A stretch of DNA of 60,103 nt, filler included. It is 3 parts of 3 records of this genome, joined end to end, with 100 filler letters (N's around TTAATTAATTAA, not from the genome) between each part and the next. Parts side by side here need not be neighbours in the genome. Positions count along the whole stretch, not along the records: positions 34,038 to 60,103 come from SRR22947727_1940; 2 more parts are not named here. One strand, given 5' to 3'. The translations under genes and the position numbers were made by a program. A model generated the notes under the pieces. That model ran no database searches. It was not told the DNA's origin and saw only the letters and a program-made list of their open reading frames with translations. Shown in pieces: positions 46,960 through 50,026 of this stretch; within the stretch, counting starts at the first letter, position 1, and each line of letters begins with the position of its first letter.

Positions 46960-48246
46960 TTATTTGCCCTTGCCGATACACCACAAGGCTTCATGGCTGC
47001 GGAGGAAAATCTCGCCCTCGGAAACTACGAGCGAAGAGTTCGTCATCTCGCCGATATCCGATTCAGCTACCACCTTCAGACCTTCGGGGTCCGCTTTAAA
47101 AACCACCGTCATTCCCGGTTGGCTGAGCGTGTAAATATGATCGCCCACCATCGTAAATGACCCCCACGATTTCCCAGGCCCAGGAAGACGCGCTTTCCAT
47201 TTTTCCTCGCCAGTTTTCATGTCCAGACACGACGCGATGTTGCTGTTGTTCAGGTAATAATAGTGTCCGTCTTTCGCCACGCCCGTGCCAATGCCGCCGT
47301 TGTGCCTAACCGTATGCCAAAGCCGATGCGTGTCGGTGACATCTCCATTTCCGCCGATTTTCACGCCGATGGAATTTCCATGATACCCACCCGTCGCAAT
47401 AACCGTGTCTCCATCAACCACCGGCGACGTGTAGACCAAAGGATTCAGTCCGCCGCATCTCCAGAGCTCTTCGCCAGTCTTCGGATCAAACGCTTTTATT
47501 TCCATCGGAAAGCTCATGACTAGCTCATCGCGCTCGCCGGAGTTTACTAAAATCGGCGTGCTGAAACTCCCAATGATGCCCTCGTCATCCCGACCTTGGA
47601 AGCCATCCGTCCGCGTGCCGGGCTTCCACTGGGGCTCGTCCCATTTCCAGACAGTTTCGCCGGTTTTTAGATTTAAACCGCTCAGAAAAGAGCCTTTTCC
47701 CGGGCCATGATAATGGGTCACCAAATCACCAATGATCATTGGCGACGAGGAATTTCCCCACGTATGAGATGCCGGCCCGAGATCACGGTGCCACAGCTCT
47801 TTTCCTTCAAAATCATACGCCGAAACGCCAGCCGACCCGTAGGAAACCACCACCGTTTTCCCATCCGTCGCGGGCGATGCTGAGCAATACGGATTCGTCC
47901 GGTGCGATGTTTCCGGCTTTGCATAAGTCACGCCTTTCTTCCAAAGCAGCGACCCATCTGCGCGGTTGAAGCACATCAGCCCACGAAATTTATCCGTGTC
48001 GATCGCCTGAGAAACAAAAATGCGATCTCCCGAAACAATCGGTGTCGAGTTTCCTCGCTGAGGGAGTTCAACTCGCCAGCGAATGTTGTCCGATTTTTTT
48101 CCCCAATCCGTCGGTGCCGAAGTTTCACCTGCCTTGCCTGATCCCTGTAAATCGCCCCGCCAACTCGGCCACGAATCGGCCAACGCCAGGCTCGAAAATA
48201 ACAGTGCGACAAGCGAAAGAGACGAAATGAAGCGGAGTTTTTCCAT
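46960..48246 (-). CDS. PQQ-binding-like (BamB-type) beta-propeller protein
   Basis: Signal peptide, WP.WRG, repeated S.P / D..TG...W blades typical of PVC bacteria. Confidence 0.88.
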   Translation of the reverse strand: MEKLRFISSLSLVALLFSSLALADSWPSWRGDLQGSGKAGETSAPTDWGKKSDNIRWRVELPQRGNSTPIVSGDRIFVSQAIDTDKFRGLMCFNRADGSLLWKKGVTYAKPETSHRTNPYCSASPATDGKTVVVSYGSAGVSAYDFEGKELWHRDLGPASHTWGNSSSPMIIGDLVTHYHGPGKGSFLSGLNLKTGETVWKWDEPQWKPGTRTDGFQGRDDEGIIGSFSTPILVNSGERDELVMSFPMEIKAFDPKTGEELWRCGGLNPLVYTSPVVDGDTVIATGGYHGNSIGVKIGGNGDVTDTHRLWHTVRHNGGIGTGVAKDGHYYYLNNSNIASCLDMKTGEEKWKARLPGPGKSWGSFTMVGDHIYTLSQPGMTVVFKADPEGLKVVAESDIGEMTNSSLVVSEGEIFLRSHEALWCIGKGK

Positions 48247-48307
48247 ACTCCTATTGAACCACGATCAGGCTCGTTTTGACGAGCGCACGATCGCGTGAAT
48301 AACGTCG

Positions 48308-48934
48308 TTAGGACTTTGAAACGCTGTTGAGCAAAAGTTCTCCCTCGCCCTTGAACTCATTGTCCATCATTCCGCGAAGGCGCTCAACGCCTCTACGAAT
48401 GCGAGCTTTTACCGTTCCCAATGGACAATCTGTTTTCTCGGCGATTTGGCGCTGAGTAAGCCCTTCAAAATAAGCAAGCTCGATGACTTCACGCTGCTCA
48501 GGAGTCAGCTCGACGACGGCCTGATTCAAAACGCGGCGGGCATCTGAGCGATACAGCTCTTCTCTGCCAGAAGTGCGTAGCTCTTTTTTGTCACCCTTAA
48601 CACGCTCTTCGAATCGGCCGTATAGCGCAGCACGTCGCTGGACAGAACGAATGCGATCAATGGCGCGGTTTCGAGCCGTGGTGCAAATCCAAGTCACAAG
48701 TGAACCTTTCTGAGGATGGTAGGAATCCGCCTTCTTCCAAACTGTGTTTAACACTTCGGCCGACACATCTTCGGTATCTTCAGCGTGTCTCAACACTTTA
48801 TAAGCGGTTGAATAAATTAGAGGATAAAATCGATTCGAAAATTCAGCCAGAGCATCGCCATCTTTCACGGCAATCCGCTGCATTAGTTGGAAATCGAGTT
48901 CGCGCTGTTCAGGAGATATCTTTGTTCTGGCCAT
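48308..48934 (-). CDS. ECF RNA polymerase sigma factor (LitS-like candidate)
   Basis: Region 2 (ED...EV...VW, W....ARNRAID..R) and region 4 (L.YFEGLT...IA.....PLGTVK.R.RRG). Confidence 0.93.
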   Translation of the reverse strand: MARTKISPEQRELDFQLMQRIAVKDGDALAEFSNRFYPLIYSTAYKVLRHAEDTEDVSAEVLNTVWKKADSYHPQKGSLVTWICTTARNRAIDRIRSVQRRAALYGRFEERVKGDKKELRTSGREELYRSDARRVLNQAVVELTPEQREVIELAYFEGLTQRQIAEKTDCPLGTVKARIRRGVERLRGMMDNEFKGEGELLLNSVSKS

Positions 48935-48938
48935 ATTT

Positions 48939-49047
48939 TGTTCAGGTTGTGTACAGATTATGTCGATAAAATGTCAAAGGTCAACAAGGATTTGACAAAA
49001 TTCGTCCCTTTTCGACTCCTTGACGTATTCTGTTCAATATTTGTCTC
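48939..49047. promoter_or_regulatory. CarH/LitR-type operator: 11-bp-period TnnACA direct repeats
   Basis: TGTTCA 48939, TGTACA 48950, TGTCGA 48961, TGTCAA 48972; inverted pair TCAACA 48981 / TTGACA 48992; TGTTCA 49031 / TGTCTC 49042. Confidence 0.75.
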
Positions 49048-49054
49048 ATTTTTT

Positions 49055-50026
49055 ATGTCTGATCTCCCCGAAAGTTACGAAATTAGCGCGGTCTCCCGGT
49101 TAACAGGAATCTCGCCCCACGTCCTCCGTGTTTGGGAGCGCCGGTATAACGTCGTTGAACCGGAGCGGACCGATTCAAAGCGCCGCCGGTATTCTAAAGA
49201 AAACATCCGCCGACTCACTTTGATTAAAATGCTGGTAGACAACGGCAATTCGATCAGCTCGATCGCCGGCCTGGAAACCAGTCAACTGGAGCAACGCGTC
49301 GAGGAGATTAATTCAGTTGTTTCTGAGACTCGAAATGAACGATTGCCCCAAAAGCATCGAAAAATTGCAGTGGTTGGCACTCTGGTTCGGGATGCCGTTC
49401 GGAGAGCTGTCGATAGTGAATCGGCATTGTCGATCGTGGGCGAATTCCTTAAAGCGGGTGAGGTTGCGGAGACGATCCGGCGAGGTGCTGTCGACCTTTT
49501 AGTGATCGAAAAGCCAACCGTCTTTGCTGAAACCGTGGCGGAGGTTAAAGAAGCAATCGAGACCTCTGGATGTTTGAAAGCAGTGGTGGTGTATCAATAC
49601 GGGGCCTTCGAAGCAATTGAGGCACTTACGATTCCTGAAGTTACCACTGTCAGGTTCCCCGCAACTTCATCGGAGCTGTTGCCGATTTTCCTCGAGAATT
49701 TGGAGAAGTCGCCAGCATCAATTCCCCCTGCCGATATTCCTGTTCCAAAAGGCGAAATTCCAGCACGGCATTTTAGCGACATCGAACTGGCGAAAATCAG
49801 TCGGCAATCTTCCGTCGTCCAATGCGAGTGCCCTCACCATTTATCCGCGTTGCTTTCAAATTTGGGAGCATTCGAGAAATACAGTTCCGAATGCGAAAGC
49901 CGGAACGACGAAGATGCAGAGCTGCACAATTTTCTTTACCGGACGACCGCTCAATGTCGCGCTGAAATGGAGGTGGCGTTGAGTAAAGTCCTCCGCCACG
50001 AAGGGATTGATCCCACCACTTTGTAA
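49055..50026 (+). CDS. MerR-family regulator, class III LitR-like
   Basis: CarA/CarH-type HTH (LRVWERRY...P.R....R.Y); C-terminal CECP.HL...FE.YS..C...DA.LH domain; no ExH B12-ligand motif. Confidence 0.85.
   Translation: MSDLPESYEISAVSRLTGISPHVLRVWERRYNVVEPERTDSKRRRYSKENIRRLTLIKMLVDNGNSISSIAGLETSQLEQRVEEINSVVSETRNERLPQKHRKIAVVGTLVRDAVRRAVDSESALSIVGEFLKAGEVAETIRRGAVDLLVIEKPTVFAETVAEVKEAIETSGCLKAVVVYQYGAFEAIEALTIPEVTTVRFPATSSELLPIFLENLEKSPASIPPADIPVPKGEIPARHFSDIELAKISRQSSVVQCECPHHLSALLSNLGAFEKYSSECESRNDEDAELHNFLYRTTAQCRAEMEVALSKVLRHEGIDPTTL

What the first reader, a model, noticed from the sequence alone, without database searches (positions are those of the whole stretch)
48308..50026. Candidate B12-independent light switch: class III LitR-like repressor divergent from an orphan ECF sigma
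Seen: a MerR protein with the CarA/CarH-type RxWERRY DNA-binding domain, no ExH cobalamin ligand, and C257-x-C259-x20-C280. It lies head-to-head with an ECF sigma whose downstream gene is not an anti-sigma. Recalled, to be verified: Burkholderia multivorans class III LitR is a light-inactivated repressor relying on three C-terminal Cys with this spacing, and it controls an ECF sigma (LitS) plus photolyase-type genes. Inference: an equivalent repressor-to-sigma cascade in a verrucomicrobial/PVC organism, where I know of no description. Targets lie elsewhere, as no crt/phr genes are in the window.
Basis: partly seen in the sequence, partly recalled or inferred. Interest (0 to 1): 0.8.

Follow-up and report, generated by a model that had tools for sequence, protein, structure and literature searches.

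The report
Class III LitR repressor with orphan sigma
A verrucomicrobial regulator of the B12-independent "class III LitR" light-switch family sits head-to-head with a sigma factor gene whose promoter carries its likely binding site, extending a little-understood family beyond Burkholderia.

Summary
Window 49055-50026 (+) encodes a 323-aa MerR protein with a CarH-type HTH, no B12 domain, and Cys257/259/280. It lies head-to-head with an ECF sigma gene (48308-48934, -).

It is a full-length homologue of the only LitR-type protein in a Burkholderia multivorans genome (27% identity, E 2e-33). The Cys triad and its x1/x20 spacing align, so I file it in the class III LitR family. I could not read the paper that defines that class.

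New here:
- The family is large: 1166 representative clusters. It spans Verrucomicrobiales, many Gammaproteobacteria and Burkholderiaceae.
- Paralogues and orthologues sit beside rhodopsin/blh, photolyase-family, crtI-family and folE genes. An ECF sigma is adjacent in 55 of 150 distinct loci.
- The sigma promoter region carries four tandem 11-bp TGTnnA repeats, which is CarH operator architecture. The triple repeat occurs nowhere else in the window or in the nearest 6-Mb genome.
- No anti-sigma gene is conserved next to the sigma gene.
- The C-terminal domain is predicted to form a symmetric dimer with all three Cys in the interface.

Most likely reading: a dark-state repressor of the sigma gene, released by light. 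The light response itself, the cofactor and the sigma's targets are inferred, not shown. It is a new member of a known kind.

The parts
49055..50026 (+). litR-like gene: 323-aa class III LitR-family MerR regulator (stop codon included)
   Evidence: There are 273 homologues at E<=1e-3, and the 120 listed cover 96-100% of the query. BLASTP against the B. multivorans homologue: 27% identity, E 2e-33, residues 8-317 against 1-300.
49076..49279 (+). MerR/CarH-type winged HTH (about residues 8-75) with R25xWERRY31
   Evidence: Pfam MerR_1, 1.9e-18. The best PDB sequence hits are Thermus LitR/CarH 3whp and 5c8d, E about 9e-8, over residues 8-67 only.
49352..49702 (+). Middle alpha/beta domain (about residues 100-216), receiver (CheY)-like fold with no Pfam hit
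   Evidence: AF2 model, pLDDT 90.2. VIA-align Z 11-13.4, rmsd 2.5-3.3 over 110-123 residues, against receiver domains and CpaE pseudo-receivers. A B12-binding mutase domain ranks 36th at Z 10.8. Foldseek TMt is 0.6-0.65.
49772..50008 (+). C-terminal helical domain (about residues 240-318) with invariant C257, C259, P260, C280 and H291. Codons: 49823-49825, 49829-49831, 49892-49894, 49925-49927.
   Evidence: Invariant in 48 sequences. phmmer with 93 aa gave 1166 representatives at E<=1e-3 and 808 at <=1e-10, always at the C-terminus of proteins of about 310-350 aa. Predicted symmetric homodimer with these residues in the interface.
48308..48934 (-). ECF-type sigma factor gene, 208 aa, with no adjacent anti-sigma
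   Evidence: Sigma70_r2 and r4_2. TIGR02937 sigma70-ECF scores 108.9 bits against a cut-off of 42.9. It is 55-75% identical in the divergent orthologous loci and 34% identical to the ECF sigma downstream of litR in Paraburkholderia.
48938..48981 (+). Putative LitR operator: four tandem 11-bp direct repeats, each nTGTnnAnnTn
   Evidence: TGTnnA four times at 11-bp spacing: 1 match in the window and 0 in 100 shuffles. The three-repeat form occurs only here in the window and only at the orthologous place in the 6-Mb nearest genome. It is the reverse complement of the CarH repeat consensus nAnnTnnACAn (PMC8156234, section 6.2).
48957..48984 (-). Sigma-70-like promoter for the sigma gene: -35 TTGACC (48984-48979), 16-nt spacer, -10 CATAAT (48962-48957). 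It lies inside the repeat array.
   Evidence: Consensus scan, 10 of 12 positions. This is weak on its own: 1 site found against a mean of 1.9 in shuffles.
48972..48997 (.). Palindrome TGTCAAA-N12-TTTGACA, overlapping repeat 4 and the -35 element
   Evidence: It is the only such site in the window. Orthologues have TGTCTA-N11-TAGACA at the same place, 30-60 nt from the sigma start.
46960..48246 (-). PQQ_2/BamB-like beta-propeller gene downstream of the sigma gene. It may be co-transcribed and is not an anti-sigma.
   Evidence: Pfam PQQ_2, 5.2e-38. Metatranscriptome contigs of 3 runs from 2 studies bridge the junction 48247-48307. The gene is not conserved in this position in most orthologous loci.

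Best explanation
The MerR gene encodes a member of the B12-independent class III LitR family. It has three parts: a CarH-type DNA-binding domain, a receiver-like middle domain, and a C-terminal helical domain carrying an invariant Cys-x-Cys...Cys...His set.

In the dark it probably binds, as a tetramer (a dimer of dimers), the four tandem 11-bp repeats that cover the -35 and -10 elements of the divergent ECF sigma gene. That keeps the sigma gene off. Light, acting on a cofactor or on the Cys site of the C-terminal domain, loosens the oligomer and the repressor leaves the DNA. The sigma factor is then made. No anti-sigma gene lies beside it, so it would be active as soon as it is made, and it would switch on photoprotective genes elsewhere in the genome (candidates: photolyase and the cryptochrome-like DPRP gene).

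Shown: family membership, domain layout, invariant residues, conserved gene pairing, and the uniqueness and conservation of the repeat array.

Inferred: repression, the tetramer, light as the signal, the chemistry of sensing, and the sigma's targets.
For: Family membership
- P0001 matches the B. multivorans locus protein over its full length (27% identity, E 2e-33).
- That genome holds only one LitR-type hit (8.2e-62). The next hits are short MerR proteins at 2.5e-7 or weaker.
- C257, C259, C280 and H291 are invariant in 48 sequences.
- No B12 domain is found. NCBIfam CarH scores 46.6 bits against a cut-off of 400.
- A review places class III LitR mainly in Burkholderia, with a C-terminus unlike any known domain and a light-dependent spectral change (PMC9758184 introduction).

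Link to light: of 150 distinct loci, 29 have a rhodopsin, blh or photolyase-family gene within the fetched 6-7 kb flanks. My estimate for a random locus is under 1%.
- Six loci have rhodopsin divergent from litR, five of them with blh.
- In Woeseiaceae, litR is followed by a photolyase-family gene.
- In the Burkholderia cepacia complex, DPRP is divergent from litR, with folE and an ECF sigma nearby.
- In Pandoraea the order is litR-folE-ECF-DPRP.
- The genes after the sigma gene (L002) or after litR (L051) are crtI-family: 452 and 522 bits against a cut-off of 238.

Sigma partner
- An ECF sigma is adjacent in 55 of 150 loci.
- The window lies in a 41-row clade (support 97), nearly all of whose rows have a divergent ECF sigma.

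Operator
- The four-repeat array is unique in the window. The three-repeat form is found only at the orthologous place in the nearest genome.
- 26 of 29 orthologous intergenic regions have at least 2 tandem repeats (shuffles: mean 0.26, maximum 2).
- All 30 TGTCTA-N11-TAGACA hits in 1.56 Mb lie in sigma-litR spacers.
- A three-repeat array sits about 100-130 nt upstream of litR in two Woeseiaceae litR-photolyase loci.

No anti-sigma: of 36 evaluable loci, 25 have a convergent gene after the sigma gene, 8 have a large co-directional gene and 3 are ambiguous.

Oligomer: the C-terminal domain (236-323, two copies, 2 Zn riding along) scored 0.60 against a best control of 0.00.
- That mark was reached by 21 of 30 proteins solved as pairs of one chain and 0 of 23 solved as single chains.
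- The three runs agree in at least 97% of contacts, and partner pLDDT is 78.
- The interface includes 256-259, 262, 280 and 291. The pairs 276 with 262' and 269 with 269' show antiparallel packing.

Expression: the sigma gene and a piece of litR occur in metatranscriptome contigs.
Against: - No experiment or light/dark expression data bear on this protein. The RNA evidence is contigs only, which give no levels and no transcript ends, and DNA carry-over is possible.
- The primary class III paper could not be read. That the B. multivorans homologue is the published LitR rests on elimination.
- The promoter call is no better than chance on its own.
- The window's operator differs from the orthologue consensus: four direct repeats on the + strand, against two repeats plus an inverted half-site.
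- 54 of 150 loci have none of the probed neighbours.
- H262 is not universal: 4 of 27 Burkholderiales homologues lack it.
- In the nearest genome no operator-like site was found at the photolyase, DPRP or squalene/phytoene-synthase genes, so the targets of the sigma factor are unknown.
- The dimer is a prediction made with zinc of my choosing and without an alignment.
- Conservation among orthologous spacers partly reflects shared descent.
Confidence: 0.65

Rival explanations
1. The protein belongs to the same family and represses in the same way, but it is not itself a photoreceptor. The Cys-x-Cys...Cys...His set would be a redox or metal (possibly iron-sulfur) centre that senses photo-oxidative stress such as singlet oxygen or peroxide, as SoxR-type MerR proteins sense redox state (SoxR recalled, not from a call).
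For: Three invariant Cys and one invariant His are typical metal or cluster ligands rather than a chromophore pocket. They lie in a predicted subunit interface. The neighbouring genes (carotenoid desaturase, photolyase) fit a stress response as well as they fit light sensing.
Against: Papers from the discovering group state that recombinant class III LitR shows a light-dependent change of its absorption spectrum and needs a chromophore other than B12 (PMC9758184 introduction; PMC6739363 introduction). Rhodopsin/blh operons next to paralogues point to light rather than to damage.
Confidence: 0.22
2. The protein is the DNA-binding effector of a separate photoreceptor, as class II LitR is for a short LOV protein. 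The receiver-like middle domain would be the docking or signal-input module.
For: PmlR2 is an effector of PmSB-LOV (PMC9758184 abstract). The middle domain has a receiver fold (Z up to 13.4), which usually takes input from a partner.
Against: No photoreceptor gene is conserved next to the pair. No BLUF match was found in the nearest genome, which is 95% complete; LOV was not searched. The acidic residue at the usual phospho-acceptor position is not conserved across the family (E152 is invariant only among the verrucomicrobial sequences).
Confidence: 0.08
3. The pair has nothing to do with light. It would be a MerR-type regulator of an envelope or metabolic ECF sigma that happens to share a fold with LitR.
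For: The window itself holds no photolyase, carotenoid or rhodopsin gene. Its neighbours are sulfatase, a PQQ-like propeller and pyruvate kinase. 54 of 150 loci show none of the probed neighbours.
Against: Light-related neighbours occur in many independent clades and phyla. Sigma-crtI and sigma-litR-crtI arrangements are found in close relatives. The protein is homologous to the Burkholderia class III protein.
Confidence: 0.05

Closest known systems
Class III LitR of Burkholderia multivorans (Sumi et al. 2018, J Bacteriol 200:e00285-18). I saw only citations and one-sentence summaries of it in PMC9758184 and PMC6739363.
   Same: Same three-part architecture. Homologous over the full length to the B. 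multivorans homologue (27% identity, E 2e-33). Identical CxC-x20-C spacing and a conserved His. No B12 domain. An ECF sigma is close to litR in Burkholderiaceae.
   Different: It lies in a deep, separate clade: Verrucomicrobiia group together with support 98, while Burkholderiaceae sit on a long branch with support 100. Here the sigma gene is divergent and shares the operator region. In Burkholderiaceae it is downstream or several kb away. folE and DPRP are not at this locus.
CarH / class I LitR (Thermus thermophilus 5c8d, 3whp; Bacillus megaterium; Myxococcus xanthus)
   Same: CarH-type HTH (E about 9e-8), and the best Foldseek hits to the whole model are CarH (E 5e-7). The operator is built of tandem 11-bp repeats with the TnnACA core, four as in B. 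megaterium (PMC8156234, section 6.2). The operator overlaps a promoter.
   Different: No B12-binding or four-helix-bundle Pfam domains. After the HTH come a receiver-like domain and then a Cys-bearing helical domain. NCBIfam CarH scores 46.6 bits against a cut-off of 400.
LitR-LitS of Streptomyces (class I LitR with a partner ECF sigma)
   Same: Light-sensitive MerR repressor paired with an ECF-type sigma partner (PMC11519972 abstract).
   Different: The Streptomyces LitR uses adenosyl-B12. This one cannot, judging from its domain content.
Class II LitR (Pseudomonas PplR/PmlR) with a short LOV protein
   Same: LitR-family repressor of photolyase-type genes without full B12 binding (PMC9758184).
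   Different: Class II keeps only the four-helix bundle and is an effector of a LOV protein. Neither a four-helix-bundle hit nor an adjacent LOV gene is seen here.

Membership tests
Class III LitR (LitR/CarH family, B12-independent) | N-terminal MerR/CarH-type HTH with RxWERRY | tested here: met
   MerR_1, 1.9e-18. CarH/LitR structures are the best sequence hits. R25-V-W-E-R-R-Y31 is present.
Class III LitR (LitR/CarH family, B12-independent) | No B12-binding domain or motif | tested here: met
   No Pfam hit outside the HTH at E<=0.01. The CarH equivalog scores 46.6 bits against a cut-off of 400 and covers residues 7-145 only.
Class III LitR (LitR/CarH family, B12-independent) | C-terminal region homologous to that of the Burkholderia multivorans protein | tested here: met
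   BLASTP E 2e-33 over residues 8-317. The CECPxH...C...H block aligns without gaps. The B. multivorans genome has one LitR-type hit only. Its identity with the published protein is inferred, because the paper is not held.
Class III LitR (LitR/CarH family, B12-independent) | Light-dependent spectral change and loss of DNA binding | not testable with these tools
   Needs purified protein. Known for the family only from summaries.
Class III LitR (LitR/CarH family, B12-independent) | Represses light-inducible genes, including an ECF sigma | tested here: inconclusive
   A unique CarH-type repeat array lies over the sigma promoter region and the pairing is conserved. No expression data resolve light from dark.
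CarH / class I LitR | B12-binding Rossmann domain with a His ligand, plus a four-helix bundle with Wx9EH | tested here: not met
   No PF02310 or PF02607 hit. There is a single Trp (W27), in the HTH. The middle domain matches receiver domains best.
ECF sigma factor | Regions 2 and 4 only, about 200 aa | tested here: met
   Sigma70_r2, r4_2 and r4. TIGR02937 scores 108.9 bits against a cut-off of 42.9. No NCBIfam equivalog or subfamily model other than TIGR02937 reached its cut-off among the 25 best of 91 families shown. The group in the published ECF classification was not determined.
ECF sigma factor | Co-transcribed cognate anti-sigma | tested here: not met
   The downstream gene here is a PQQ_2 propeller. 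In 36 evaluable orthologous loci, 25 have a convergent gene, 8 have a large co-directional gene and 3 are ambiguous. A distant anti-sigma is not excluded.

The most novel reading that the evidence does not exclude
The invariant Cys-x-Cys of one subunit and the Cys280 (with His291 or His262) of the other would form two composite sites at the ends of an antiparallel helical dimer. These sites would hold a labile metal or iron-sulfur centre. A 3-Cys/1-His set is reminiscent of CDGSH-type 2Fe-2S ligation (recalled, not tested).

Light would destroy or rearrange this centre and so break the tetramer. That would be a photoreceptor chemistry unlike flavin, bilin, retinal or B12.

It would operate in more than a thousand protein clusters across marine and soil bacteria, including regulators of proteorhodopsin operons.
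Probability: 0.2. Interest if true: 0.85.

Novelty: new member of a known kind. Interest (0 to 1): 0.5.

Why it matters
In the papers I could read, class III LitR is described only as a Burkholderia-centred curiosity with an unknown chromophore. This locus and its relatives change that picture in four ways.
- The family is widespread in Verrucomicrobiales and in marine and sediment Gammaproteobacteria.
- It is wired to rhodopsin, photolyase and carotenoid genes.
- It keeps the CarH way of reading DNA (tandem 11-bp repeats) although it has swapped the sensor module.
- It has just four invariant candidate ligand residues, which sit in a predicted subunit interface.

Together these give a short list of mutants, a defined 44-bp probe, and several cultured hosts (Haloferula, Lentisalinibacter, Burkholderia). 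With them one can ask how a B12-free LitR senses light.

For ecology, the family marks a likely light-response circuit in abundant heterotrophs. Because the repeat array is unique in the genome, the cascade should be simple to dissect.

Tried and rejected
1. A shared motif turned out to be a dispersed repeat. The 25-nt sequence GTTGATTCNNCGNACAAACNCTGTT lies upstream of the photolyase operon, of DUF6807-DPRP and of the HpnD-like synthase in the nearest genome, and at first looked like a regulon signal. It is a dispersed element with 317 copies at <=3 mismatches, against 1 for the reversed control. It has no copy in the window. Rejected as a LitR or sigma site.

2. SQS_PSY genes about 3.2 kb downstream of litR in 18 loci are HpnD-like: 271 and 243 bits against a cut-off of 278.6. 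They follow the lepA-lepB block, so I treat them as inherited gene order, not as a marker of light.

3. A CGTAAC hexamer is conserved upstream of litR in 18 of 29 spacers. I found no consistent -35 partner and no consistent hairpin, so it is not assigned.

4. The sigma-70-like promoter scan alone is not significant.

5. Papers and earlier findings:
- Sumi 2018 and Sumi 2020 are not held.
- Searches for 'class III LitR' (4 papers), LitR+Burkholderia+CarH+B12-independent, LitR/photosensor/MerR from 2019, Verrucomicrobia+LitR (swamped by 'litre') and Verrucomicrobia+rhodopsin+MerR gave no description of this family in Verrucomicrobia and nothing on its Cys residues.

6. The ESM Atlas gave only unnamed or MerR-named clusters.

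7. The fold searches were filled by the HTH and receiver domains, so the fold of the C-terminal domain remains untested.

8. In the nearest genome there was no rhodopsin match, but nothing rang in the controls either, so this is uninformative. There was no BLUF match.

9. RNA contigs do not cover 48953-49033 or most of litR. This is no evidence either way.
Full report
**1. What is in the sequence**

- Two divergent genes fill 48308-50026.
  - On the minus strand, 48308-48934 encodes a 208-aa ECF-type sigma factor with Sigma70_r2 and r4_2. TIGR02937 scores 108.9 bits against a cut-off of 42.9.
  - On the plus strand an ORF open from 48887 encodes a MerR protein.
- Homologues begin 6-8 residues before the HTH, so I take the ATG at 49055 as the start, giving 323 aa.
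- In that numbering the Cys residues are at 173, 257, 259, 280 and 301, and R25-V-W-E-R-R-Y31 is the RxWERRY motif.
- Pfam finds the MerR HTH only. The NCBIfam CarH model scores 46.6 bits against a cut-off of 400 and matches only as far as residue 145.
- PDB sequence hits are confined to residues 8-74. The best are Thermus LitR/CarH, E about 9e-8.
- The gene after the sigma gene (46960-48246, -) is a PQQ_2/BamB-like propeller with a signal-peptide-like start.

**2. The family**

- The protein has 273 homologues at E<=1e-3 in the 5.8-billion-protein index. The 120 listed all cover 96-100% of the query.
They come from Verrucomicrobiales, Woeseiaceae, Lentisalinibacter, Methylococcaceae, Chromatiales, a Myxococcales bin, a Bdellovibrio bin and a Burkholderiales bin.
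- In a sample of 301 genomes of the order of that Burkholderiales bin, 27 genomes (33 places) had full-length matches at E<=3.3e-61. One of the 27 (G297) is flagged unpublished. It enters only this count and the next one.
- I took one such locus from a 7.1-Mb genome as query. It led to Burkholderia diffusa, contaminans, ambifaria, territorii, pseudomultivorans and multivorans, and to Paraburkholderia and Pandoraea: 27 relatives among 228 pattern matches.
- The B. multivorans genome holds a single LitR-type match (8.2e-62, model positions 2-308). The other three hits are 2.5e-7 or weaker, two of them in ORFs of about 140 aa.
- P0001 aligns with that protein over residues 8-317 against 1-300, with 27% identity and E 2e-33.
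- The block C-E-C-P-x-H-L ... F-E-x-Y-S-x-x-C ... D-A-x-x-H aligns without gaps, with the same x1 and x20 spacing.
- Papers from the discovering group say that class III LitRs are found mainly in Burkholderia, that their C-termini resemble no known domain, that the recombinant protein changes its absorption spectrum in light, and that the chromophore is not B12 (PMC9758184 introduction; PMC6739363 introduction; passages only).
- The primary paper is not held. The equation 'L185 homologue = published LitR' therefore rests on elimination.

**3. Invariant residues and fold**

- In 48 sequences from Verrucomicrobiia, Gamma- and Betaproteobacteria, Myxococcia and Bdellovibrionia, the invariant columns outside the HTH are L78, G108, C257, C259, P260, H262, F273, E274, Y276, C280, A288, H291, E306, L309 and E316.
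- C301 is Ala in 5 of 25 verrucomicrobial sequences.
- In the wider Burkholderiales sample, 23 of 27 homologues have CxCPxH and 4 lack His at that place. By eye, the three Cys and the later His are kept in all 27.
- An AlphaFold2 model built on the 48-row alignment has pLDDT 90.2 and pTM 0.47. Its parts are an HTH (1-70), a long helix (75-94), an alpha/beta domain (102-213), a poorly modelled linker, and helices 242-250, 259-279 and 285-316.
- The alpha/beta domain has a receiver fold: Z 11-13.4 against response-regulator and CpaE receiver domains. A B12-binding mutase domain appears only at rank 36 with Z 10.8 (Foldseek).
- The C-terminal domain was not reached by these searches.
- phmmer with the last 93 residues against 1.84 billion representatives found 1166 proteins at E<=1e-3 and 808 at E<=1e-10. 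In the listed proteins of about 310-350 aa the match is always at the C-terminus.

**4. A predicted subunit interface**

- C257 and C259 lie at the start of helix 259-279 and C280 lies at its end. In one chain they are therefore far apart.
- Folding two copies of residues 236-323 with two zinc ions riding along gave ipSAE 0.60 against a best control of 0.00.
  - That mark was reached by 21 of 30 proteins solved as pairs of one chain and by 0 of 23 solved as single chains.
  - The runs agree in at least 97% of contacts and partner pLDDT is 78.
  - The calibration held no small molecule, so the counts apply only roughly, and my alignment was not used.
- The interface lists residues 256-259, 262-263, 280-281 and 290-291.
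- The pairs 269 with 269', 273 with 262' and 266', 276 with 262', and 301 with 301' describe an antiparallel, two-fold symmetric packing.
- By that symmetry, C257 and C259 of one chain come next to C280 of the other. This is my inference, not a printed contact.
- The tool's verdict is that the model supports binding but does not show it.

**5. The gene pair is conserved and the sigma gene stands alone**

- I probed 174 loci around homologues with tblastn. 166 gave a usable LitR and 150 were distinct. I dropped L035 and L129 (a stop codon), L037, L077, L125 and L202 (too short), and L196 and L204 (no LitR hit).
- An ECF sigma gene lies within 1.1 kb in 55 of the 150, and within the fetched flanks in 60.
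- In a FastTree tree the Verrucomicrobiia form one clade (SH-like support 98). The window lies in a 41-row sub-clade (97), nearly all of whose rows have a divergent ECF sigma. The Burkholderiaceae form a 20-row clade on a long branch (100). The tool warned of long-branch joins.
- The sigma proteins of the divergent loci are 55-75% identical to the window's. The sigma downstream of litR in Paraburkholderia is 34% identical (E 6e-30).
- Of 40 distinct divergent loci, 36 could be judged.
  - In 25 the next gene converges on the sigma gene, 23 of them ending within 100 nt.
  - In 8 a large co-directional gene follows. Five of these match the crtI-type probe from L002 (that probe itself is crtI_fam, 452 bits against a cut-off of 238). 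The others are the propeller here, a 431-aa ORF in L102 that was not scanned, and one more.
  - 3 are ambiguous.
- No anti-sigma-like gene is conserved.

**6. Link to light**

- Within the fetched flanks, 29 of 150 loci hold a rhodopsin, blh or photolyase-family gene. With one to three such genes per genome, a random 12-gene neighbourhood would hold one in under 1% of cases (my estimate).
- The arrangements recur in separate clades (Pfam and NCBIfam names; positions):
  - rhodopsin, with blh beside it in five, divergent from litR, often with a flavin amine oxidase and a photolyase-family gene downstream (six loci, e.g. L040, L050);
  - sigma-litR-crtI operons (L041, L043, L051, L094);
  - litR followed by a photolyase-family gene in Woeseiaceae and other Gammaproteobacteria;
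  - DPRP divergent from litR, with photolyase, folE and an ECF sigma nearby, in the Burkholderia cepacia complex;
  - litR-folE-ECF-DPRP in Pandoraea;
  - litR-folE-ferrochelatase in B. multivorans.
- 54 loci show none of the probes.

**7. The operator**

- The 120-bp spacer holds four tandem 11-bp units at 48938-48981: TGTTCAGGTTG, TGTACAGATTA, TGTCGATAAAA, TGTCAAAGGTC.
- TGTnnA four times at 11-bp spacing occurs once in the window and in none of 100 shuffles. The three-repeat form occurs only inside this array.
- In the nearest genome held (6.0 Mb, 95% complete) the three-repeat form occurs only at the orthologous spot, with 1 hit for the reversed control. The window's own assembly is not held.
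- Read on the other strand, the units fit the CarH repeat consensus nAnnTnnACAn at 5, 5, 4 and 4 of 5 specified positions (my count). CarH operators consist of three (Thermus) or four (B. megaterium) such repeats and overlap the promoter (PMC8156234, section 6.2).
- The array contains a sigma-70-like promoter facing the sigma gene: TTGACC, 16 nt, CATAAT (10 of 12). This is not significant by itself.
- The palindrome TGTCAAA-N12-TTTGACA overlaps the array.
- Among 29 orthologous spacers:
  - 26 have at least two tandem TGTnnA units (shuffles: mean 0.26, maximum 2);
  - 22 have TGTCTA-N10-14-TAGACA with at most one mismatch per half (shuffles: mean 1.07, maximum 4).
- In 1.56 Mb of loci, all 30 hits of the N11 form lie in sigma-litR spacers, 30-60 nt from the sigma start.
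- Across 1.93 Mb, arrays of three or more repeats occur five times against 0.23 expected. These are the window locus (fetched twice), two Woeseiaceae litR-photolyase loci about 100-130 nt upstream of litR, and one site 1.6 kb away from litR.
- Related spacers share descent, so these counts overstate independence.

**8. Expression**

- Metatranscriptome contigs cover the sigma gene and bridge into the propeller gene in 3 runs from 2 studies. One of them is a 95-99% relative. A 200-nt litR piece appears in one run.
- Contigs give neither levels nor transcript ends, and DNA carry-over is possible.

**9. Targets**

- The nearest genome has a second litR paralogue, next to an ArsR-methyltransferase and SAM-cycle genes.
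- It also has a CPD photolyase, a DPRP gene preceded by DUF6807, and two SQS_PSY genes (one scanned is HpnD-like).
- It has no BLUF match. The rhodopsin search was uninformative.
- No operator-like array lies at any of these genes.
- This fits a design in which the repressor controls only the sigma gene and the sigma factor does the rest. The sigma's promoters are not known.

**10. Verdict**

- The locus is a new, verrucomicrobial member of the class III LitR family, coupled to an ECF sigma with no adjacent anti-sigma through a CarH-style operator.
- That light is the signal is a strong inference from gene context. How light is sensed remains open.
- The family and the repressor-to-sigma logic are known, so this is not a new kind of system.
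- The invariant Cys/His set in a predicted interface and the single genomic operator make the open mechanism directly testable.

Noticed in passing
G001 loci L216-L235 (e.g. L216, L217, L218); no copy in the window at <=3 mismatches: A dispersed element...ACCCTGTTGATTCRTCGAACAnACCCTGTTGATTCGT..., occurs 317 times in the nearest genome at <=3 mismatches, about equally on both strands. In 10 of the 20 copies examined, an ORF of 100 aa or more starts with ATG or GTG 8-13 nt after it. It looks like a very common promoter-proximal or leader element of this organism. Its function is unknown.
   Followed up: partly
window 49024-49029 (CGTATT); orthologous spacers of L002-L038: A CGTAAC hexamer is conserved 26-95 nt upstream of the litR start in 18 of 29 orthologous spacers. 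The window has CGTATT. I found no consistent -35 partner or hairpin. It could be the -10 element of an ECF-type promoter that feeds back on litR, but this is not established.
   Followed up: partly
window 47900-48910: RNA-library contigs of 3 runs from 2 studies run from the PQQ-like propeller gene across the 61-nt gap into the sigma gene. The two genes may therefore be one transcript in this organism. The nearest relative, L102, also has a 431-aa co-directional ORF after its sigma gene.
   Followed up: partly
L209:9606-10646 (-) = G001:C163:53629-54606: A second LitR-family paralogue (E 9.6e-93) lies in the nearest genome. It is flanked by an ArsR-HTH/SAM-methyltransferase fusion and, divergently, by SAM synthetase and AdoHcy hydrolase. 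It has no light-related neighbour.
   Followed up: partly
L057, L083, L091, L101, L106, L109, L120, L129 (Methylococcaceae): In methanotroph bins the litR homologue is always divergent from a fatty-acid-hydroxylase-superfamily gene (Pfam FA_hydroxylase, with only a weak OlsE-like NCBIfam hit). This is a conserved pairing of unknown meaning.
   Followed up: no
L027:222-5852 (+), likewise L026 and L028: In Lentisalinibacter/Woeseiaceae a gene of about 1880-1950 aa lies directly upstream of litR on the same strand. In L027 it encodes a duplicated UvrA-like ATPase, with UvrA interaction and DNA-binding domains.
   Followed up: no
L211:4885-9275 (G001:C163) compared with L002, L010, L013, L015: In relatives, lepA follows litR, and a DUF6807 gene abuts the sigma gene in some. 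In the nearest genome, lepA, DUF6807 and the cryptochrome-like DPRP gene sit together on another contig. The window's locus therefore looks rearranged relative to its relatives.
   Followed up: no
L040, L079, L048, L050 (rhodopsin-litR spacers): Spacers between rhodopsin and the litR paralogue carry repeated TGTGCATTT(T/C)CTGTAGAGAAA-like units, that is TGT at 11-bp spacing. This suggests that the paralogues also use CarH-type repeats, with another half-site.
   Followed up: partly
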